A stretch of 64,000 bases of DNA. Origin: a virus (lineage: Duplodnaviria; Heunggongvirae; Uroviricota; Caudoviricetes). This document shows, one piece after another, positions 6,577-13,231 of this stretch; the first letter of the stretch is position 1; each line of letters starts with the position of its first letter. The position numbers and the translations under genes are program-made. The stretch lies in IMG/VR virus record IMGVR_UViG_2529292920_000018, positions 1 to 64,000 of that record. One strand, given 5' to 3'. The notes beneath the pieces are model-generated. The model made no database searches and was not told the DNA's origin. It worked only from the letters and a program-made list of their open reading frames with translations.

Positions 6577-7457
6577 ACACTCCTCGTCAGTATTCTGGCG
6601 GCCATTGCACTTAATCCCGGAGACATGCGGTTGAATGCTGTGCCGGCGGCGTTAAGCTGCCCGGAAACGGTATCCAGAGCACCTGCAATATTTCTTTTGT
6701 CCACACCACTCAGCGCAGACTGTGCCTGCTGTACATACGTGGCTGCTTCGCTGGCTGTTCTGGCCAGACTGATGGCATCGGGCATGGATTCAGAGAGTGC
6801 GTTAAACGCCGGAACACTTTTCCCCAGAGCCCCGGAGATATTACCCAGTCCGCTCATCAGCCCCGGCACACGGGTCAGTGCGACAACGGGGTTATCCTTC
6901 ATTTTCTGTGTCACCCGAACGGCGCTGATAGTGGTCTGGAGTACAGACTGCGCCTGTTTCGCATAGTTGACGCCGTTGCGGATGAACTGCGCCACCCCTG
7001 AAGGTGAAGGTATGGCACCGGAGACCGCCCCGACACCCGGGAGCTTCGTGCGTATTGCCGGTGGTTGCAGAGGATTTTTCGGGTCACCGGTGTATTCCCG
7101 GAGAGACACGGTGGCACTGACAGCCAGCACGTTGCCGGTACTGTCAGTCTGCTCGCTGGTTGCAGTCACATCGGTAATCACGAACCAGCCGCGATAGTCA
7201 CCGTTGCCGAAGACCAGCGCCAGTGCCTGATGGGCTTTCATGGCTGTTCGCAGTCTCGCCAGCTCCACATCGGGTACACAATAATGCTGATGGAAAACCA
7301 GAGTTATCTGGATTTCGTCCAGCCTGTCGCCGACGAACTGCAGGCCAGGCTTACCCCCGATGCGGGCATGCTCCGCATAATCGACGCCGAACGTGGCCTC
7401 GAAGCCGTCCCAGTAGGTAATCAGCTCAAACTCAATATCACCCAGTACGGCAAACAT
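6573..7457 (-). CDS. DNA circularisation protein N-like (gpU-like N-terminal domain)
   Basis: 294 aa; N-terminus resembles the gpU-like protein at 36698-37177; located after the tape measure. Confidence 0.6.
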   Translation of the reverse strand: MFAVLGDIEFELITYWDGFEATFGVDYAEHARIGGKPGLQFVGDRLDEIQITLVFHQHYCVPDVELARLRTAMKAHQALALVFGNGDYRGWFVITDVTATSEQTDSTGNVLAVSATVSLREYTGDPKNPLQPPAIRTKLPGVGAVSGAIPSPSGVAQFIRNGVNYAKQAQSVLQTTISAVRVTQKMKDNPVVALTRVPGLMSGLGNISGALGKSVPAFNALSESMPDAISLARTASEAATYVQQAQSALSGVDKRNIAGALDTVSGQLNAAGTAFNRMSPGLSAMAARILTRSV

Positions 7458-10408
7458 CAGCGGTACTCCTTACGTTGTTTCTGAGCCAGCAGACGCTCCA
7501 GCATTTTTTCCAGCTCATGCAGACTCATATTCAGGGCACCAGTCAGTCCTGCAGGCGCTGTGGTTTCCCTGCCATTGAGGAAAAACTGAGGATTAAAGCT
7601 GACCTGGATACCACCAGACGTTCCACCGCCGGTTGCAGCTGCACCACGGCCTGAATATCCGGCAGCCAGGATTTCAGGCGAGGGGATACGGGGAACATCC
7701 GGTGTCATCTCATTTGCCAGACGTTGCCCTGGTAAAATCGATGCCCGGGTGGAGAGCGGAATAGCGGGCATGGAAGACAAACTATTGATTACGGCTCCGA
7801 TCGCATTTTTAGCAGACGACATAAACCCATTGATATCGGGCAACGGCATACTGAAGCGAACACCTGAAGTGTTATCCCGTATTTCTGGCCCCTGGATGCT
7901 CACGGGCATTCTGGGGAGCAGTTCACTGGCCATTCGCTGCCCGGCCAGAGCTGCAAGCGGAGTGGTCCGCTGCAGGCCAATGGCGGCCCCCTGCGCGATA
8001 TTGTCACCAAAGCCCATAAACACGCGGCTCGGCGAATGAATGCCCAGCTTTTCGCTGAACCAGCCACTGATGCTGTCACCCATTCCGGTTACACTGGATT
8101 TGAGCGACTCCCATTTGTTTTTGATACCGTTAATCAGACCATCGACAAGATGGCCACCGAAGTCGGTAAACTTTGCCGGCAGATCAACACCAAGATATTT
8201 CAGCGCAGCTGCAAAGGCTTTATAGAGCAGACCTGCCGGCGACCAGTTAATCAGCAGCTTACCAGTTCCCGCGATACCGCCGTTAAAGGCTTCCTGAATG
8301 TCAGCCCAGCACTGTTTAAACCAGCTACTGATGCTGTCACCCATTCCGGTTACACTGGATTTGAGCGACCCCCATTTGTTTTTGATACCGTTAATCAGAC
8401 CGTCGATAAGATGGCCACCGAAGTCGGTGAACTTTGCCGGCAGAGCAACGCCGAAATATTTCAGCGCAGCCGCAAAGGCTTTATAGAGCAGGCCTGCCGG
8501 CGACCAGTTAATCAGTAACTTACCAATTCCCACAATGCCGCCGTTAAAGGCTTCCTGAATGTCTGCCCAGCGCTGTTTAAACCAGCCACTGACTGCCCCC
8601 CAGTTGCGGTAGATAAGGTAAGCTGCTGCCGCGACAGCGGTGATAACGAGACCGATGGGATTCATCATCAGCGCACGTCCAATCCAGAGAACAGCACGTC
8701 CGGCGAGCATAATTCCGCGAACCAGCCCCCCGGAGAGCACGCCACTCAGTGTTCTGGCTCCTCTGGCGACGGCGCTAAATCCGGTCACCAGCCAGCGGAG
8801 CTTACCGCCTTGCCCCAGTGCGAGCGACAGACGAAGCCAGTTGGCCCGAAGTAAAACAGCATTTTTCCAGACACTTACAAAGGGGGAAATAAGGAGATTC
8901 AGCCCCAGTTTGAGACCAACAGTCGCTATCTTAATCGCAAGGAGCGCACTGATGAGCTTAAAAGCCCCACTGACAAATTGCGGGTGAGTCGCTACCCAGT
9001 GTTTTGCCCCCTGAATGAGTGGAAGCAGTTCCTGAGTCAAAGAAATAAAAGATGGAGCTAATTGATCGCCCAGCGTAATTGCCAGATCGCGACTGCTGAC
9101 CATAAGTGTTTTAGTGGCTTCAAGGGGAGATTTCAGCCGCTGATCATAAGCACTGGCAAGCAAATCGTTATCCGCAGCCCTGAGAGCACCGGCACGGATC
9201 TCTCGATATCTGTCCATGTTGGCCAGCATCGGGCGGATAAATGCCATGACCTGCATATCCGCGAACATATCGCCCAGACCAAAGTTTTTCGCCAGAGCCT
9301 GAAGTGCCTCATCTCTTGCCGTATCATTCTTTATTTTCATGGCTGATTTGAAGCCGGCCAGCGCTTCGGGGCTTTTGGCATTGAGGTAACGTTCTATAAC
9401 ACTCAACATCCCTTCAATCGGAGAGATCCCCGCAGCTTTATAACTCGCAATAGATCCCTGCAAATCAATACCCAGATCAGCAAACTGTTTCTGAGTATCG
9501 CGGGCAAAAATTTTGGTAAGAAAGTTTTTAAAATTATTGGCTGCTTCGTCGGTGGAACCTGCACCGATTTTTGCTATCTGGAGACTGGCCCCTATTTCAG
9601 CAACAGCCTCTTTTCCACTGGCAATACCCGCCATCATTGGGGCCAGGGACTGCATCCACTTGACCTGATCCGGGATTTCAAATGACCCCTGGTCACCGGC
9701 ATAAGCCATAATATTCTGAACGGCACCAAAATCTCTGGCCGCACCTTTCAGGGAGTTTTGCCAGACTGCGGCCACTTTTGCCCAGTCCTGAGCAGACGTG
9801 CGTGTTGCCGTTGCCGCGCGGGCAATATCCGGCATCAGAAAACCGATATCTGACACATTATCAATATTGTCGCTGATGAGTGAACCCACCGCCTCCTGCA
9901 GCTCATCCTGATACTGATTGTATTTAAGCGCCCAGCCTTTTATCTGTCCGGCAAGTGCATCCCGCGTTTTATTGTCATATTTTGCGGTGATCGACATATC
10001 AATCATTTTGTCCTGAAAAGACATGGACTGCTGAACGGCAGGGGAAACCGTATGATAAACAGTCTGTGCCATGCCATACGCTTCAATCCCCTGACCATAC
10101 AGCGCCATGCGGTTAGCTTTCAGCGCATCACTGGTAGCGGATGCCGCTGACAGACGGCGCTGCTGGCGCTCAATTTGCTCCATGGTGCGGCTTACCCGCA
10201 GCAGCTCGCTGTTGAGATGCTGCATCCGGGAAGAACCCAGTTGACCATAACGTTCTGTTGCACGGGTTAAAGCGTTCTGACGTTCCTGCAGGCGGCGTGA
10301 GGTATCGCTCAGGGAATCAAGCGCACGGCGGGTACCGCTCATTGCAGAACGGAATGTGCTACCAATCATCCCGCCGATAACAACGCCGACTGAAAACTGT
10401 CCCGACAT
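7457..10408 (-). CDS. Tail tape measure protein
   Basis: 983 aa, helical Ala/Gly-rich protein between chaperone and baseplate genes; contains an internal 87-aa tandem duplication. Confidence 0.85.
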   Translation of the reverse strand: MSGQFSVGVVIGGMIGSTFRSAMSGTRRALDSLSDTSRRLQERQNALTRATERYGQLGSSRMQHLNSELLRVSRTMEQIERQQRRLSAASATSDALKANRMALYGQGIEAYGMAQTVYHTVSPAVQQSMSFQDKMIDMSITAKYDNKTRDALAGQIKGWALKYNQYQDELQEAVGSLISDNIDNVSDIGFLMPDIARAATATRTSAQDWAKVAAVWQNSLKGAARDFGAVQNIMAYAGDQGSFEIPDQVKWMQSLAPMMAGIASGKEAVAEIGASLQIAKIGAGSTDEAANNFKNFLTKIFARDTQKQFADLGIDLQGSIASYKAAGISPIEGMLSVIERYLNAKSPEALAGFKSAMKIKNDTARDEALQALAKNFGLGDMFADMQVMAFIRPMLANMDRYREIRAGALRAADNDLLASAYDQRLKSPLEATKTLMVSSRDLAITLGDQLAPSFISLTQELLPLIQGAKHWVATHPQFVSGAFKLISALLAIKIATVGLKLGLNLLISPFVSVWKNAVLLRANWLRLSLALGQGGKLRWLVTGFSAVARGARTLSGVLSGGLVRGIMLAGRAVLWIGRALMMNPIGLVITAVAAAAYLIYRNWGAVSGWFKQRWADIQEAFNGGIVGIGKLLINWSPAGLLYKAFAAALKYFGVALPAKFTDFGGHLIDGLINGIKNKWGSLKSSVTGMGDSISSWFKQCWADIQEAFNGGIAGTGKLLINWSPAGLLYKAFAAALKYLGVDLPAKFTDFGGHLVDGLINGIKNKWESLKSSVTGMGDSISGWFSEKLGIHSPSRVFMGFGDNIAQGAAIGLQRTTPLAALAGQRMASELLPRMPVSIQGPEIRDNTSGVRFSMPLPDINGFMSSAKNAIGAVINSLSSMPAIPLSTRASILPGQRLANEMTPDVPRIPSPEILAAGYSGRGAAATGGGTSGGIQVSFNPQFFLNGRETTAPAGLTGALNMSLHELEKMLERLLAQKQRKEYR
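8041..8590. repeat. 261-bp near-identical tandem duplication (2 copies plus about 20 bp) inside tape measure gene
   Basis: tttaaaccagc motif recurs at 8058, 8319 and 8579; protein shows FKQRWADIQEAFNGGI...DSISSW twice. Confidence 0.8.
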
Positions 10409-10483: not shown

Positions 10484-10741
10484 CTATGATTTGTCGCCGT
10501 ACTCGCTTTTTATTTGCTCTTCAGCCTGCTCCAGCCACATCTCCAGATCGTCAGTATCGAGGGCATCAATCTCCCCCGGCTGAAACCGGAACCATCTCGC
10601 CAGCAGCCCCTGCGCCTGCGTCAGCGCCCTGGTTGCTCTCACCCATCCCCGTGATGAGCTGAAATCGTTTCTGTAACTGCAGGTAATCAGCCAGATCCAT
10701 ATTGTCGAGATCTTCCGGGAGAAGACCAGTACTGCGGGCAA
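10484..10741 (-). CDS. Tail assembly chaperone frameshift extension (GT-like), reached by recoding from 10566-10901
   Basis: ORF overlaps the chaperone 3' end in the +1 frame and extends 27 codons beyond its stop. Confidence 0.45.
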   Translation of the reverse strand: MPAVLVFSRKISTIWIWLITCSYRNDFSSSRGWVRATRALTQAQGLLARWFRFQPGEIDALDTDDLEMWLEQAEEQIKSEYGDKS

Positions 10742-10901
10742 TCAGCGGTTCGTCCCAGTCTGCCGGGTTTTTGCTGATTTTGCGCACCTGCTTCAGGTCT
10801 TTTACCGTCAGGCGTTTCAGTTCAACCAGCTCAATTCTGGTGCCTGCAGCAGTGGTGAAGGGATAAGACAATTTAAAAGTATCGGATGGGGTCTGTGACA
10901 T
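10566..10901 (-). CDS. Tail assembly chaperone (lambda G-like / Mu gp41-like), zero-frame product
   Basis: 111 aa acidic protein directly upstream of the tape measure; overlapping second ORF 10484-10741. Confidence 0.6.
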   Translation of the reverse strand: MSQTPSDTFKLSYPFTTAAGTRIELVELKRLTVKDLKQVRKISKNPADWDEPLIARSTGLLPEDLDNMDLADYLQLQKRFQLITGMGESNQGADAGAGAAGEMVPVSAGGD

Positions 10902-10998: not shown

Positions 10999-11280
10999 TC
11001 AGCAAGTGCGAAACCCCTTGCAGTTACGCAGGAAAGCGATGAGAAGCGTCTTTCCCTCAGATTTGCCGATGCCGGAGAACCAGTGGTCGGGAGGCTCCCA
11101 TGCTTCAATCAAATCCGCCAGTTTGCGGGCCTTTGAACGTGTGCAGTCAATCGGGTCATTGGTTTTACGGGTATTAAAAAGGGTTTCCACCCCCGGAATA
11201 TCAAGGAGGGTAAACCACGTACCATTTGACATGCCCAGTGCCGCACATCGTCCTCCTTTATCCGTCAGTTCAACACTCAC
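10999..11280 (-). CDS. Hypothetical protein (extra ORF between tube and chaperone)
   Basis: 93-aa ORF; start overlaps the tube gene stop; no recognised family. Confidence 0.4.
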   Translation of the reverse strand: MSVELTDKGGRCAALGMSNGTWFTLLDIPGVETLFNTRKTNDPIDCTRSKARKLADLIEAWEPPDHWFSGIGKSEGKTLLIAFLRNCKGFRTC

Positions 11281-11282
11281 CG

Positions 11283-11804
11283 TCAGCCCCCGATATTGAT
11301 ACGGTAGTCAGTCAGTTGATCAACACCGCCGACCCGGAAGATGTTGGCCAGATAGTCCAGTTGCAGCAGCTCTTCACCATCCAGTACCTGTCTGATATAC
11401 GTGCAGGTGAAGCTACTGGAGAACTCGGCGTTCTCGTGCTGTTTGAACGTCCCCAGCGGGTTCTTCTTGAACATAATCGTCAGGAAGGTGACCAGCGGGA
11501 TTTCGTCAATCAGCCCCTGCGAGCTGTAGCGCTGGACGCTGGAACGACACTGCAGTGCCAGCGACCTGTACGGGTTCGCGGCAGACAGCATCGCATCGCG
11601 GTAAAAGCTGTTCCATTTGATTTCGCCTTCCAGTTTGTCAAAACCAGCCGGGAGTTCCACCTTACCCACCATCCCCAGCGCCTTGTGTTCCTGCATAATC
11701 ATGGAGACATCGGGGAGTTTAACTTCCTCAGCCCGTCCCAGCAGGTTAGTACCATCCAGATAGATGTTGGCATTCGTGATGCGGTTTATCTCAATCTTTG
11801 ACAT
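11283..11804 (-). CDS. Tail tube protein
   Basis: 173 aa; follows sheath; resembles the tube protein at 40116-40634. Confidence 0.8.
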   Translation of the reverse strand: MSKIEINRITNANIYLDGTNLLGRAEEVKLPDVSMIMQEHKALGMVGKVELPAGFDKLEGEIKWNSFYRDAMLSAANPYRSLALQCRSSVQRYSSQGLIDEIPLVTFLTIMFKKNPLGTFKQHENAEFSSSFTCTYIRQVLDGEELLQLDYLANIFRVGGVDQLTDYRINIGG

Positions 11805-13231
11805 CAGTTGCCCCCTTTCAGGGTTAACAGGTATTCCGAGGTGATCTCAGTCTCAAACGTCAGTCGCTCCAGCGGCGGTGGTGGCGTATATTTGTAGCTC
11901 AGCAACAGGTGCCCGGCGGCCAGCTCCGTCTCCGGATTGCGGGCCGGATCAAACCAGCAACGGAAGCCCAGTACCGCACCATCACCAGTCATTTTGCGAC
12001 CGTAGGCGTTGACCGACTCCGTCAGTGCATCAATCAGCGCCTGAGTAATCGGCATGTCGATGTACTGCTGGCTGAAATAACGAATGGACTCGTTGATCAC
12101 ATCACCGGTGCGGCGAACGTTCTCAAAGTTACGCATATGGGTGACCGTTGGCCATGCTGCCGTCCGGTTACCCCACAGACGAAGGCCGCTGCCGTAACTG
12201 CTGAATACCGTGGTGATCCCCTGTTCGTTAAGCAGGTTCACCTCACTCTGCGGGTCATCAATCATCGCGGACAGCTGGCGCTCCACGCCGGTGATCCCCA
12301 GAATCTCCTGATTGGAGGATGACCACCAGTAGCCCTTGTCCAGATCGACTCTGGCACGCAGACCTGCTGCACGCTGGCTGAGCGGCTCCAGACGCTCTGT
12401 GTTTGTCACCGGGTCATATACCTTCACATGCGGATAGCACAGACGGACGCGGTCGGAGCTGGTATTGAAGTTGATGGTGCCTTCCGGGCCACGACCTGCC
12501 AGAGCCTGTGCAAAGGTGGTACCGACAGGCGCATCAATGTAGGTTACCGCGCCCAGCTTCTCTGCCATGGCGATAAGCTCAACTGCGACACTCTTCTGGG
12601 TGCAGAACACCGGCGCAATCAGAATTTTGGCGAAATAGCCGTACAGGTTGAAGCTGTCGTTAAGCAGCTTCATGCCGGTTCGGTTTCCGGCGCTGTTCAC
12701 CCCGCCGATGATGTCCGCCGCAGTCACCTTCGACGGGTCCGCGTACTCATAGCTCACCTTCACGCTGCCACCGGCCTCAATAGCCTTGCCCAGGTTCGTG
12801 AGCACACCCGCCTGCGCATCAACACGGTAGTCCGTGTTCGCCGTGTGGGTGGTGCTGCCTTCACTGTTTTTCACCACCACATTAGCGACAACCGGATGCG
12901 CCAGTCTGGCCTGCCCTGTCGATTTGTCAAAGGTAACCACCTCATCCTCGATCGCCGTTTTATGTTTCGCCGGGTCGAGGACGTTAATGACCAGAACGGT
13001 GCCTGCACCATGGTCATAAATCGCATCCAGCGCCTGCGGAATGGTAAAGCCGGTGAACTGGCTGCCAAATGCCGCTGCGTCTTTCTCAGACAGGCACTGT
13101 ACCAGCGTATTGACATCCCCCATCGGGGCGGTACCAATCAGGCCAATAACGGCAGATTTCACCGTTTTAACCGGGCGGGCTCCGTTTTCCACCTCAATGG
13201 TTTCGGGACCATGCAGATAGTTAGCTGCCAT
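11804..13231 (-). CDS. Tail sheath protein
   Basis: 475 aa; contractile-tail sheath position and size. Confidence 0.85.
   Translation of the reverse strand: MAANYLHGPETIEVENGARPVKTVKSAVIGLIGTAPMGDVNTLVQCLSEKDAAAFGSQFTGFTIPQALDAIYDHGAGTVLVINVLDPAKHKTAIEDEVVTFDKSTGQARLAHPVVANVVVKNSEGSTTHTANTDYRVDAQAGVLTNLGKAIEAGGSVKVSYEYADPSKVTAADIIGGVNSAGNRTGMKLLNDSFNLYGYFAKILIAPVFCTQKSVAVELIAMAEKLGAVTYIDAPVGTTFAQALAGRGPEGTINFNTSSDRVRLCYPHVKVYDPVTNTERLEPLSQRAAGLRARVDLDKGYWWSSSNQEILGITGVERQLSAMIDDPQSEVNLLNEQGITTVFSSYGSGLRLWGNRTAAWPTVTHMRNFENVRRTGDVINESIRYFSQQYIDMPITQALIDALTESVNAYGRKMTGDGAVLGFRCWFDPARNPETELAAGHLLLSYKYTPPPPLERLTFETEITSEYLLTLKGGN

What the first reader, a model, noticed from the sequence alone, without database searches (positions are those of the whole stretch)
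10484..10901. Tail chaperone recoding appears to be +1 rather than the usual -1
The chaperone ORF (10566-10901) is overlapped by a second ORF (10484-10741) in the +1 frame that extends 27 codons past its stop. The -1 frame would add only about 20 residues. No canonical XXXYYYZ slippery heptamer was seen in the overlap.
Basis: seen in the sequence. Interest (0 to 1): 0.4.

Follow-up and report, generated by a model that had tools for sequence, protein, structure and literature searches.

The report
Tail chaperone +1 frameshift site
A prophage tail-assembly chaperone gene must be joined to its second domain by a +1 reading-frame change instead of the usual -1, most likely a slip of the phenylalanine tRNA on CGA_UUU_C; about 150 related phages keep this motif, but nobody has yet detected the fused protein.

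Summary
On the minus strand, the chaperone ORF (10566-10901, 111 aa, Pfam Phage_TAC_7) is overlapped by a +1-frame ORF (10484-10741). It lies between the tail tube and tape-measure genes of a BcepMu-like prophage with P2-type tail genes.

- **What the +1 frame encodes:** the counterpart of P2 E' (GpE-like, ...LLARWFRFQPGEIDALD...). It is under purifying selection and sits in the +1 frame in 62 of 62 diverse bacterial loci. It was never found fused in frame among the best 150 hits from a library of 1.84 billion representative proteins.
- **G runs rejected:** many relatives, and a common E. coli allele, end frame 0 upstream of the G runs near the ORF end. +1-frame selection also starts upstream of them.
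- **Allowed window:** stop codons across the clade leave about 8 codons for the shift.
- **Conserved motif:** the only conserved nucleotides in that window are frame-0 YUU_C, here CGA_UUU_C at 10667-10661. The codon is TTT in 115 distinct contexts, CTT in 2 and TTC in 0. The preceding Arg codon is CGA in 90 of 90.
- **Best model:** a low-level +1 P-site slip of tRNA-Phe (UUU to UUC), giving a 138-aa fusion.

This is inferred, not shown. It differs from P2 (-1 at T6G) and Mu (-2 at a G5 run), so I rate it a new variant of a known kind.

The parts
10566..10901 (-). Frame-0 tail assembly chaperone ORF (111 aa; P2 gpE / lambda gpG analogue)
   Evidence: Pfam PF10109 Phage_TAC_7, E=5.5e-21, 74.8 bits against a cut-off of 25, residues 8-81. 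phrog_166 'tail protein', E=2.8e-32. RefSeq names it 'phage tail assembly protein'.
10661..10667 (-). Proposed +1 shift site CGA_UUU_C: Arg79 and Phe80 codons plus the first base of codon 81. tRNA-Phe would slip from UUU (10664-10662) to UUC (10663-10661).
   Evidence: Frame-0 YTT_C lies at the end of the TAC domain in 155 of 156 loci. Across 117 distinct contexts the codon is TTT 115, CTT 2, TTC 0. When the preceding residue is Arg, its codon is CGA in 90 of 90, against CGA in 31 of 466 other Arg codons. Gene nt 235-242 are invariant in the enterobacterial alignment. It is the only conserved motif inside the ~8-codon window allowed by stop codons.
10484..10660 (-). +1-frame segment read after the shift: 58 codons (10660-10487) plus TAG stop (10486-10484). 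Predicted fusion is 80 + 58 = 138 aa.
   Evidence: Frame arithmetic and translation. +1-frame amino acids are invariant while their codons vary from gene nt ~289. The +1 product length after the Phe is 54-61 aa in most relatives.
10505..10603 (-). E'/GpE-like domain (LARWFRFQPGEIDALDTDDLEMWLEQAEEQIKS) in the +1 frame
   Evidence: Pfam PF06528 Phage_P2_GpE, E=0.0016, 18.4 bits, below the cut-off of 23; fusion residues 100-132. phrog_8286, E=1.3e-32. Aligns with P2 E' and BcepMu gp42. PGAP names the same ORF 'GpE family phage tail protein' in an 87%-identical E. coli prophage.
10573..10577 (-). G5 run (GCC GGG GGA GAT TGA) just before the frame-0 stop. It looks like the obvious shift site but is rejected.
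   Evidence: About half of the relatives stop frame 0 at GTT TAG, upstream of this run. It encodes the P-G-E of the conserved E' motif QPGE and becomes CCG AGT in relatives with QPSE. It is a hot spot for assembly indels that create false 138-aa fusions.
10607..10610 (-). G4 run (GCA GGG G), candidate +1 site 2; rejected
   Evidence: Invariant CAGGG among close relatives, but replaced by AGC or GGC in Pectobacterium and other genera. +1-frame selection already acts upstream of it. The common 90-aa allele stops frame 0 upstream of it.
10647..10650 (-). G4 run (ACG GGG A), candidate +1 site 1; kept as a minor lineage-specific alternative
   Evidence: Frame-0 GGG with a 4-fold variable next base among enterobacterial relatives. 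Replaced by GGA in Photorhabdus, GGT in Ralstonia and Pandoraea, and absent where frame 0 stops 5-9 codons after the Phe. By hhalign it aligns with the position of the P2 -1 site.
7457..10408 (-). Tape measure protein gene (983 aa), immediately downstream
   Evidence: Pfam PF10145 PhageMin_Tail, E=2e-20. RefSeq and PhiKM annotate it as tape measure.
11283..11804 (-). Tail tube gene (173 aa), upstream context
   Evidence: Pfam PF04985 Phage_tube, E=2.9e-53.
11804..13231 (-). Tail sheath gene (475 aa), upstream context
   Evidence: Pfam PF04984 and PF17482.

Best explanation
This is the chaperone pair of a contractile-tail prophage: Bcepmuvirus-like, with P2-type tail genes.

- Most ribosomes read frame 0 and make the 111-aa chaperone, a Phage_TAC_7 protein analogous to lambda gpG and P2 gpE.
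- A small fraction shift +1 at CGA_UUU_C (window 10667-10661, minus strand). Peptidyl-tRNA-Phe sits on UUU, where its GAA anticodon makes a G.U wobble, and re-pairs one base downstream on UUC, a full Watson-Crick match.
- The weakly paired CGA codon in the E site (I.A wobble) may help.
- Translation then continues in the +1 frame for 58 codons to TAG at 10486-10484.
- The result is a 138-aa fusion: chaperone residues 1-80, a variable linker, and the conserved E'/GpE-like domain (...LLARWFRFQPGEIDALDTDDLEMWLEQAEEQIK...).
- By analogy with lambda G/GT and P2 E/E+E', the shared N-terminal part coats the tape measure protein and the E' domain recruits the tail tube protein. The low shift rate would set the ratio of the two products.

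Shown here: the gene order, the family assignment, the +1 frame relation and its conservation, purifying selection on the +1 frame, and nucleotide-level conservation of YUU_C and CGA.

Inferred: that the shift happens at UUU_C, that it is +1 and not -2, its efficiency, and the roles of the two proteins.
For: 1. **Identity and context.** The ORF is TAC_7 at 74.8 bits and sits between the tube (PF04985) and tape measure (PF10145) genes. The region is 99.7% identical to Escherichia phage PhiKM, a Bcepmuvirus.

2. **The +1 frame encodes E'.** It matches phrog_8286 at E=1.3e-32 and PF06528 weakly. It aligns with P2 E' and BcepMu gp42.

3. **The frame relation is conserved.** E' is +1 relative to the chaperone in 62 of 62 genome loci from Gamma- and Betaproteobacteria and other groups. 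The same holds in BcepMu, Ralstonia phage YO107_2 and Pseudomonas phage Komp_PAO1_1.

4. **No in-frame fusions.** Among the best 150 of 199 hits in 1.84 billion representatives, proteins match either the chaperone part or the E' part. The only exceptions are error-containing sequences; the two-stretch proteins whose sequences I read are tandem double chaperones.

5. **Where selection switches.** Frame-0 constraint ends at I-T-G (gene nt 250-255). +1 constraint is unambiguous from nt ~289 and visible from about nt 278. A wider +1 motif, L-W-x-A-x-x-L-L-A-R-W-F, is shared across genera.

6. **Stop codons bound the site.** The last +1-frame stop lies 4 codons before the Phe in 8 contexts. The first frame-0 stop lies 5 codons after it in L156 and L160, and 6-9 codons after it in 8 more loci.

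7. **One conserved motif in that window.** Frame-0 YTT_C occurs in 155 of 156 loci. The codon is TTT 115, CTT 2, TTC 0. Other Phe codons in the same chaperone domains are TTC 108 and TTT 89, and a conserved N-terminal Phe is TTC 50 and TTT 3. In loci above 58% G+C the site is TTT 30 and CTT 1, while other Phe codons are TTC 36 and TTT 15.

8. **Flanking codons.** The residue after Phe varies (Q, L, R, H), but its codon always starts with C. The preceding Arg codon is CGA in 90 of 90.

9. **Pairing logic (inference).** The tRNAs reading UUU and CUU can re-pair on UUC in +1. A tRNA on UUC could not re-pair on UCC, which predicts the observed absence of TTC. -2 re-pairing from UUU would land on GAU, which is impossible.

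10. **Precedent.** Influenza PA-X shifts +1 on UCC_UUU_CGU (PMC3498833), and BcepMu has TCC_TTT_CGC. From memory, UUU-pyrimidine sites are +1-prone in E. coli; I confirmed only that Fu and Parker 1994 is in the reference list of PMC5009743.

11. **Within the window's own lineage.** A 90-aa allele with a stop at codon 91, seen on at least 914 contigs, ends frame 0 upstream of two of the three G runs.
Against: - There is no protein, ribosome-profiling or reporter evidence. Both the site and the direction are comparative inferences.
- The frame-0 A-site codon (CAG here) is common. No SD-like sequence lies upstream, and the downstream RNA fold is not significant (z = -0.98). Any shift would therefore be unstimulated and low.
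- The 8-codon window assumes that all lineages shift at the same position. Individual lineages could use their own sites. Examples are GGG_A at 10649-10646 here and a Mu-like CGG_GGG_C in L156.
- Between the Phe and nt ~278, the +1 frame shows no clear constraint, while frame 0 still does (ACN is 4-fold synonymous at nt 252). This fits dual coding but does not prove +1 reading there.
- The loci are phylogenetically related, so the raw figure of log10 P = -44.5 overstates independence.
- By hhalign, the P2 -1 site aligns 2-4 codons downstream of this Phe, not at the same codon.
Confidence: 0.6

Rival explanations
1. The shift is a +1 slip of tRNA-Gly on a frame-0 GGG_N within the linker. Candidates are ACG_GGG_A (10649-10646) and GCA_GGG_G (10610-10607). 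This would apply at least in the enterobacterial lineage that includes the window.
For: Both sites have a near-invariant frame-0 GGG followed by a 4-fold variable base that keeps GGN in the +1 frame among 53 enterobacterial sequences. Site 1 aligns with the position of the P2 -1 site and lies upstream of the codon-91 stop of the common 90-aa allele.
Against: Site 2 becomes AGC or GGC in Pectobacterium and other genera. Site 1 becomes GGA in Photorhabdus and GGT in Ralstonia and Pandoraea. Both lie beyond the frame-0 stop in 10 loci. +1-frame selection (L, A, Q codons at nt 278-292) already acts upstream of site 2. Site 2 is downstream of the codon-91 stop in the 90-aa allele.
Confidence: 0.15
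2. The shift is a Mu-type -2 slip (or a +1 slip) on the G5 run GCC_GGG_GGA_GAU_UGA next to the frame-0 stop (10580-10566). This would add only the last 27 codons.
For: Mu's verified -2 site is also a G5 run near the end of gp41, CGG_GGG_CGA. A tRNA-Gly on GGA could re-pair -2 on GGG, or one on GGG could re-pair +1 on GGG. The adjacent stop codon could slow the ribosome.
Against: Roughly half of the relatives stop frame 0 at GTT TAG, 4 codons before the run. The run lies inside the conserved E' motif, and relatives with QPSE lack it. The conserved LLARWFRFQ part of E' would be left out of the product. The run's phase differs from Mu: GGG_GGx here, xGG_GGG in Mu. The 90-aa allele stops far upstream.
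Confidence: 0.05
3. There is no recoding. The +1 ORF is translated on its own as a small GpE-like protein, as some annotations imply, or it is a non-functional remnant.
For: PGAP annotates a separate 46-aa 'GpE family phage tail protein' from an ATG in an 87%-identical prophage. Gene callers have produced many E'-only small proteins. RefSeq and PhiKM annotate nothing here for the window's lineage.
Against: The window has ACG where those relatives have the ATG, and Pectobacterium and other genera also lack a start there, so no start codon is conserved. The +1 frame is open and constrained well upstream of any candidate start. In P2 the homologous E' is annotated as made only as the E+E' fusion, which is listed as an essential tail protein. 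Strong purifying selection rules out a remnant.
Confidence: 0.07
4. The frame relationship is an artefact of a sequencing or assembly indel in a G run, and the true gene is a single in-frame ORF.
For: Public assemblies do contain 138-aa in-frame versions with junctions at G runs (P0007-P0011, P0023, P0060).
Against: Those junctions sit at different homopolymers and come mostly from read-archive assemblies. The two-frame arrangement is identical in 584 complete E. coli genomes at >=99% identity. It is also kept across genera with many substitutions.
Confidence: 0.01

Closest known systems
Bacteriophage P2 gpE / gpE+E' (-1 programmed frameshift at GGU_UUU_UUG; Christie et al. 2002, cited in PMC3931495)
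   Same: Same protein families: TAC_7 N-terminal part and a GpE-type C-terminal domain. Same gene order, FI-FII-E/E'-T. The shift lies at the C-terminal edge of the TAC_7 domain, within 2-4 codons in the hhalign alignment. The extension has a similar size, 57 aa in P2 and 58 aa here.
   Different: E' lies in the +1 frame, not -1. There is no T6G or any X_XXY_YYZ heptamer. The proposed slip is a single P-site tRNA moving forward on UUU_C, not a tandem backward slip.
Bacteriophage Mu gp41 / Mu_56 (-2 frameshift, CGG_GGG_CGA; Xu, Hendrix and Duda 2004)
   Same: Contractile tail of a transposable phage. The chaperone lies between the tube and tape measure genes. The second ORF is in the +1/-2 frame.
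   Different: Mu gp41 belongs to PF23746 Gp41_Mu and reaches TAC_7 only weakly (23.8 bits, below the cut-off of 25). Its extension has no GpE match. Mu's site is a G5 run 8 codons before the stop, in a phase that allows -2 re-pairing. The conserved motif here cannot re-pair in -2.
Lambda gpG / gpGT (-1 frameshift, ratio about 30:1)
   Same: Same functional logic and genome position: two products with a shared N terminus, one abundant and one rare, needed for tail assembly on the tape measure protein (PMC5009743).
   Different: No sequence similarity, the opposite shift direction, and a non-contractile tail.
Influenza A PA-X +1 frameshift on UCC_UUU_CGU (Firth et al. 2012, PMC3498833)
   Same: Same core motif, NNN_UUU_C, with tRNA-Phe re-pairing on UUC. 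BcepMu and 15 other distinct contexts have UCC/GCC_UUU_CGC.
   Different: Eukaryotic ribosomes and a rare A-site codon (CGU) as the proposed stimulator. Here the A-site codons (CAG, CUG, CGC) are common in the hosts.
E. coli prfB (RF2) +1 frameshift, CUU_UGA_C
   Same: P-site +1 slip with re-pairing. The two non-TTT exceptions in this clade use CUU_C, the prfB shift codon.
   Different: No stop codon in the A site, no upstream SD-like stimulator, and no autoregulatory logic. The expected efficiency is a few percent, not tens of percent.

Membership tests
Pfam PF10109 Phage_TAC_7 (P2 E, Mu 41, gp14 chaperones) | HMM score above the curated gathering cut-off | tested here: met
   74.8 bits against a cut-off of 25, E=5.5e-21, residues 8-81.
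Tail assembly chaperone frameshift pair (lambda G/GT paradigm) | Located between the major tail (tube) gene and the tape measure gene | tested here: met
   Tube at 11283-11804, chaperone at 10566-10901, tape measure at 7457-10408, all on the minus strand.
Tail assembly chaperone frameshift pair (lambda G/GT paradigm) | A second ORF overlaps the 3' part of the first in another frame, has no conserved start of its own, and ends just before the tape measure gene | tested here: met
   The +1 ORF is open from 10741 to 10487. The ATG seen in some relatives is ACG here. The ORF ends 76 nt before the tape measure start.
Tail assembly chaperone frameshift pair (lambda G/GT paradigm) | Two proteins share an N terminus in a fixed low ratio, and both are required for tail assembly | not testable with these tools
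   Needs proteomics and genetics.
P2-type E/E+E' recoding | C-terminal extension carries the Phage_P2_GpE domain (PF06528) | tested here: inconclusive
   18.4 bits, E=0.0016, below the cut-off of 23. P2 itself scores 76 bits. Supporting evidence: phrog_8286 at E=1.3e-32, the PGAP name in a relative and the alignment.
P2-type E/E+E' recoding | E' in the -1 frame, reached at a U_UUU_UUG (T6G/T7G) heptamer | tested here: not met
   E' is in the +1 frame. No T6G or X_XXY_YYZ lies in the overlap.
Mu-type -2 chaperone frameshift | Gp41_Mu family protein (PF23746) | tested here: not met
   Only TAC_7 was reported for the window protein at E<=0.01. Mu gp41 hits PF23746 at 116 bits.
Mu-type -2 chaperone frameshift | Conserved G run in the phase xGG_GGG, which allows perfect -2 re-pairing of tRNA-Gly | tested here: not met
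   The window's G runs are in the phases ACG_GGG_A, GCA_GGG_G and GCC_GGG_GGA. None is conserved across the clade.
+1 P-site slippage sites (UUU_Y, CUU_N; PA-X, prfB) | Frame-0 codon whose tRNA can re-pair on the codon one base downstream | tested here: met
   UUU_C here. YUU_C is present in 155 of 156 loci, with TTC never used.
+1 P-site slippage sites (UUU_Y, CUU_N; PA-X, prfB) | Slowly decoded A-site codon (a stop or a rare codon) and/or an upstream SD-like stimulator | tested here: not met
   The A-site codon is CAG, CUG or CGC. By inspection, no SD-like sequence lies upstream. No significant downstream structure. The conserved CGA in the E site is a possible substitute, but this is untested.
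+1 P-site slippage sites (UUU_Y, CUU_N; PA-X, prfB) | Trans-frame protein with the predicted junction | not testable with these tools
   No fused sequence with the junction ...KRF|SSS... appeared among the sequences longer than 111 aa that I read from the first protein search.

The most novel reading that the evidence does not exclude
A whole clade of P2-type tail chaperones (BcepMu-like phages and prophages of Gamma- and Betaproteobacteria) uses a dedicated, stimulator-free +1 programmed frameshift on NNN_UUU_C, usually CGA_UUU_C. A weak I.A-paired E-site codon would promote forward slippage of tRNA-Phe. Within one protein family the recoding direction would then have switched from -1 (T6G in P2) to +1, at nearly the same place in the protein. 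It would also be a bacterial counterpart of the influenza PA-X site.
Probability: 0.5. Interest if true: 0.6.

Novelty: new variant of a known kind. Interest (0 to 1): 0.45.

Why it matters
Tail-chaperone frameshifting is one of the most conserved recoding events in phages, but verified cases are almost all -1. Mu is the single verified -2 case.

- **Mechanism.** A clade-wide +1 site with a simple, mutable motif (TTT against TTC, CGA against CGT) would be a clean natural system. It could test how an unstimulated P-site slip and the identity of the E-site codon set a low, fixed product ratio in bacteria.
- **Annotation.** RefSeq lists either only the 111-aa chaperone or two separate genes. PhiKM lists only 'tail protein E'. 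BcepMu pairs gp42 with gp43 by a presumed slippage that ignores the real chaperone, gp41. More than 600 complete E. coli genomes carry this prophage module.

Tried and rejected
- **G5 run as the site.** This was my first guess, from the Mu analogy. I rejected it once relatives showed frame-0 stops upstream of the run and E' coding across it.
- **GGG_N sites 1 and 2.** They looked good in enterobacterial relatives but are not conserved in the wider set.
- **Shift at the frame-0 stop (prfB-like).** In the BcepMu group the stop GGA_TGA sits just before the E' domain. However, L092 and L093 have earlier frame-0 stops, and the P-site codons cannot re-pair.
- **-2 slip on GC dinucleotide repeats (GGC_GCU, GGC_GCA).** Not conserved.
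- **Downstream RNA structure.** z = -0.98, not significant.
- **'Same codon as P2'.** My hand alignment from the DL motif put P2 F84 on window F80. hhalign and the Pfam coordinates put the P2 site 2-4 codons further downstream, so I withdrew the claim.
- **BLASTP of the window chaperone against P2 gpE.** No alignment.
- **Viral-contig scan with P2 gpE.** It returned only 99-100% identical copies and was useless for a profile.
- **Other database searches.** NCBIfam gave no hit. PDB sequence search gave no hit. The first E' alignment, with 8 sequences, was too diverse for the locus search.
- **Literature.** Six searches and several papers gave no description of a +1 site in BcepMu-like or P2-type chaperones. 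Xu et al. 2004, Baranov et al. 2006, Christie et al. 2002 and Summer et al. 2004 are not held in the library, so prior mention there cannot be excluded.
Full report
**1. The observation**

The genes lie on the minus strand. In order they are:
- sheath (11804-13231)
- tube (11283-11804)
- a small ORF (10999-11280)
- the chaperone ORF (10566-10901, 111 aa)
- the tape measure gene (7457-10408, 983 aa)

A second frame is open from the stop at 10744-10742 to TAG at 10486-10484. It is listed as ORF 10484-10741. Codon-phase arithmetic and a three-frame translation show that it is +1 (equivalently -2) relative to the chaperone. It overlaps the chaperone by 176 nt and runs 27 codons past its stop.

The -1 frame is blocked by stops at 10623 and 10512. 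It would add about 18 codons, and its length is erratic among relatives. No X_XXY_YYZ heptamer lies in the overlap.

**2. What the two ORFs are**

The 111-aa protein is a Phage_TAC_7 chaperone (74.8 bits against a cut-off of 25). The region is 99.7% identical to Escherichia phage PhiKM, a Bcepmuvirus, where only 'tail protein E' is annotated. It is >=99% identical in 584 complete E. coli genomes.

The +1 peptide matches phrog_8286 at E=1.3e-32. It matches Pfam Phage_P2_GpE weakly (18.4 bits, cut-off 23), from '...LARWFRFQPGEIDALD...' onward. P2's own E+E' product carries that domain at 76 bits. PGAP names the same +1 ORF 'GpE family phage tail protein' in an 87%-identical E. coli prophage, but annotates nothing in the window's lineage.

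BcepMu itself has the same layout. gp41 is the TAC_7 chaperone, and gp42 in the +1 frame carries '...LLLVLKIQPSEIAELDMDDYWHW...'. Its authors instead paired gp42 with gp43 by a presumed slippage.

**3. Is the +1 relationship meaningful?**

- Seventy-eight viral contigs related to the chaperone, at 54-100% identity, all keep the +1 ORF except two broken ones.
- A genome-collection scan seeded with the E' peptide returned 65 loci, from Enterobacterales, Burkholderiales, Neisseriales and various MAGs. In all 62 loci with a detectable chaperone, E' is +1 to it.
- From gene nt ~289, substitutions fall almost only on +1-frame third positions. The peptide QGLLARWFRFQPGEID is invariant while its codons vary.
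- A search of 1.84 billion representative proteins with an artefactually fused 138-aa sequence found chaperone-only and E'-only proteins. It found no genuine in-frame fusion; the two-stretch proteins whose sequences I read are tandem double chaperones.
- The 138-aa 'fusions' in public data have junctions at different G runs and come mostly from read-archive assemblies, so they are homopolymer indel errors.

An indel artefact in the window is therefore excluded. Net +1 recoding is the only way to attach E' to the chaperone. No start codon for E' is conserved: the ATG used by PGAP is ACG in the window and is absent in Pectobacterium and other genera.

**4. Where is the shift?**

My first candidate was the G5 run GCC_GGG_GGA_GAU_UGA (10580-10566). 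I chose it because Mu's verified -2 site is CGG_GGG_CGA. It fails for three reasons:
- About half of the relatives end frame 0 at GTT TAG, upstream of the run.
- The run encodes the P-G-E of the conserved E' motif.
- The conserved LLARWFRFQ would be left out of the product.

Two GGG_N sites (10649-10646 and 10610-10607) looked conserved among enterobacterial sequences. They are replaced in Photorhabdus, Pectobacterium, Ralstonia and Pandoraea.

Ten loci end frame 0 only 5-9 codons after a conserved Phe at the edge of the TAC_7 domain. Eight contexts have a +1-frame stop 4 codons before that Phe. If the site is shared, it lies in a window of about 8 codons. A common E. coli allele of this same prophage (90 aa, stop at codon 91, at least 914 contigs) also ends frame 0 upstream of two of the three G runs.

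**5. The conserved motif**

Inside that window the only conserved nucleotides are frame-0 YUU_C. It is present in 155 of 156 loci, and the exception is a broken gene. The counts over 117 distinct contexts are:

| Position | Count |
|---|---|
| Phe codon at the site | TTT 115, CTT 2, TTC 0 |
| Other Phe codons in the same chaperone domains | TTC 108, TTT 89 |
| A conserved N-terminal Phe | TTC 50, TTT 3 |
| Site, loci above 58% G+C | TTT 30, CTT 1 |
| Other Phe codons, loci above 58% G+C | TTC 36, TTT 15 |
| Arg codon before the Phe | CGA 90 of 90 |
| Other Arg codons in these domains | CGA 31 of 466 |

The residue after the Phe varies (Q, L, R, H), but its codon always starts with C. In the enterobacterial alignment CGATTTCA is invariant, while flanking synonymous sites vary.

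In the window the motif is CGA_UUU_C at 10667-10661.

**6. Mechanism**

- tRNA-Phe (anticodon GAA) reads UUU with a G.U wobble and can re-pair perfectly on UUC one base downstream.
- From UUC it could not re-pair on UCC. This predicts exactly the observed absence of TTC.
- The two exceptions use CUU_C, the prfB-type shift codon, whose tRNA can also re-pair on UUC.
- -2 re-pairing from UUU would land on GAU, which is impossible.

These points are inference from codon-anticodon rules. The same core, UCC_UUU_CGU, is the influenza PA-X +1 site (PMC3498833), and BcepMu has TCC_TTT_CGC. From memory, UUU-pyrimidine sites are +1-prone in E. coli. I could confirm only that Fu and Parker 1994 appears in the reference list of PMC5009743.

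I found no SD-like stimulator, no rare A-site codon and no significant downstream structure (z = -0.98). The shift is therefore expected to be low, which is what a G:GT-type ratio needs. Published ratios are about 30:1 for lambda and 2.2% for Mu. The invariant CGA, which pairs by an I.A wobble, may weaken E-site pairing. This is speculation.

The predicted product is 138 aa: M1...R79-F80, then SSSRGWVRATRALTQAQGLLARWFRFQPGEIDALDTDDLEMWLEQAEEQIKSEYGDKS.

**7. Comparison with known systems**

The system works like lambda G/GT and P2 E/E+E'. It is a member of the TAC_7 family and a likely member of the GpE family.

It is not a P2-type recoding site, because the frame is +1 and there is no T6G. 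It is not a Mu-type site either. Mu gp41 is a different Pfam family, and no conserved G run here has the -2-compatible phase. By hhalign, the P2 -1 site aligns 2-4 codons downstream of this Phe, so the shift is in the same region of the protein but not at the same codon.

A review states that -1, -2 or +1 is used in different tailed phages for this function (PMC5009743), so the kind is known. I found no description of this clade's +1 site. Several key papers are not in the library, however.

**8. Verdict**

- Confidence that net +1 recoding joins the chaperone to E' is about 0.9.
- Confidence that the site is CGA_UUU_C with a true +1 slip is about 0.6.
- Novelty: new variant of a known kind.
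- Interest: moderate.

Noticed in passing
window 8058-8592 (minus-strand tape measure gene 7457-10408): A 261-bp tandem duplication (2.0 copies, 92% match) encodes an 87-aa repeat inside the tape measure protein. The homologue in E. coli 510016 is 1070 aa against 983 aa here, a difference of one unit. The PhiKM record has a sequencing gap at this spot. Copy-number variation could change tail length.
   Followed up: partly
window 10992-10977, minus strand: A terminator-like hairpin, AGGGGCTCCGGCCCCT followed by TCTTCTT, lies between the small ORF downstream of the tube gene and the chaperone gene. It could act as an attenuator that lowers chaperone and tape measure expression relative to sheath and tube.
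   Followed up: no
window ~10479-10459, minus strand: The inverted repeat ACAGCCGC-CAGT-AGCGGCTGT lies between the E' stop (10486-10484) and the tape measure ribosome-binding site (GGAGG). The CAGCCGC arm recurs in relatives. Its function is unknown.
   Followed up: no
window 10999-11280, minus strand: A 93-aa ORF sits between the tube and chaperone genes. It has a weak DUF7739 match (E=3.5e-5, below the cut-off) and is conserved as 'hypothetical protein' in RefSeq prophages and PhiKM. P2 has no gene at this position.
   Followed up: no
L083 (BcepMu AY539836) 6603-7364: The published annotation pairs gp42 with gp43 as the frameshift pair and leaves gp41 as a 'conserved protein'. The sequence shows that gp41 is the TAC_7 chaperone and gp42 is its +1-frame E' part. 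gp43 overlaps the tape measure start and is probably not real.
   Followed up: partly
proteins P0007-P0011, P0023, P0028, P0060: Public assemblies contain 138-aa to 144-aa 'fused' chaperones whose junctions sit at the G4 and G5 runs. These appear to be homopolymer indel errors, and they could mislead anyone looking for natural fusions or for the shift site.
   Followed up: partly
proteins P0125, P0129, P0133, P0187, P0225, P0243: Some relatives encode tandem double chaperones, with two TAC_7 domains in one 177-221-aa protein. Two of them (P0125, P0129) end in the frame-0 tail ...GEVVPVPAE or ...SEVVSHSAE, so they probably still need the +1 shift.
   Followed up: no
L156 (Gallionellaceae MAG), ~1430-1466: Right after its CUU_C this locus has CGG_GGG_C, the same octamer type as Mu's -2 site, 3 codons before the frame-0 stop. 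Some lineages may have two usable routes into the same frame.
   Followed up: no
L101 (NZ_PJIO01000028.1, 'Arthrobacter sp. GMC3', 8.2-kb contig, coverage 6.9): This contig matches the window's E' peptide at 100% and its chaperone-linker DNA is identical to a window-type viral contig (L016). It is most likely E. coli contamination in an actinobacterial assembly.
   Followed up: no
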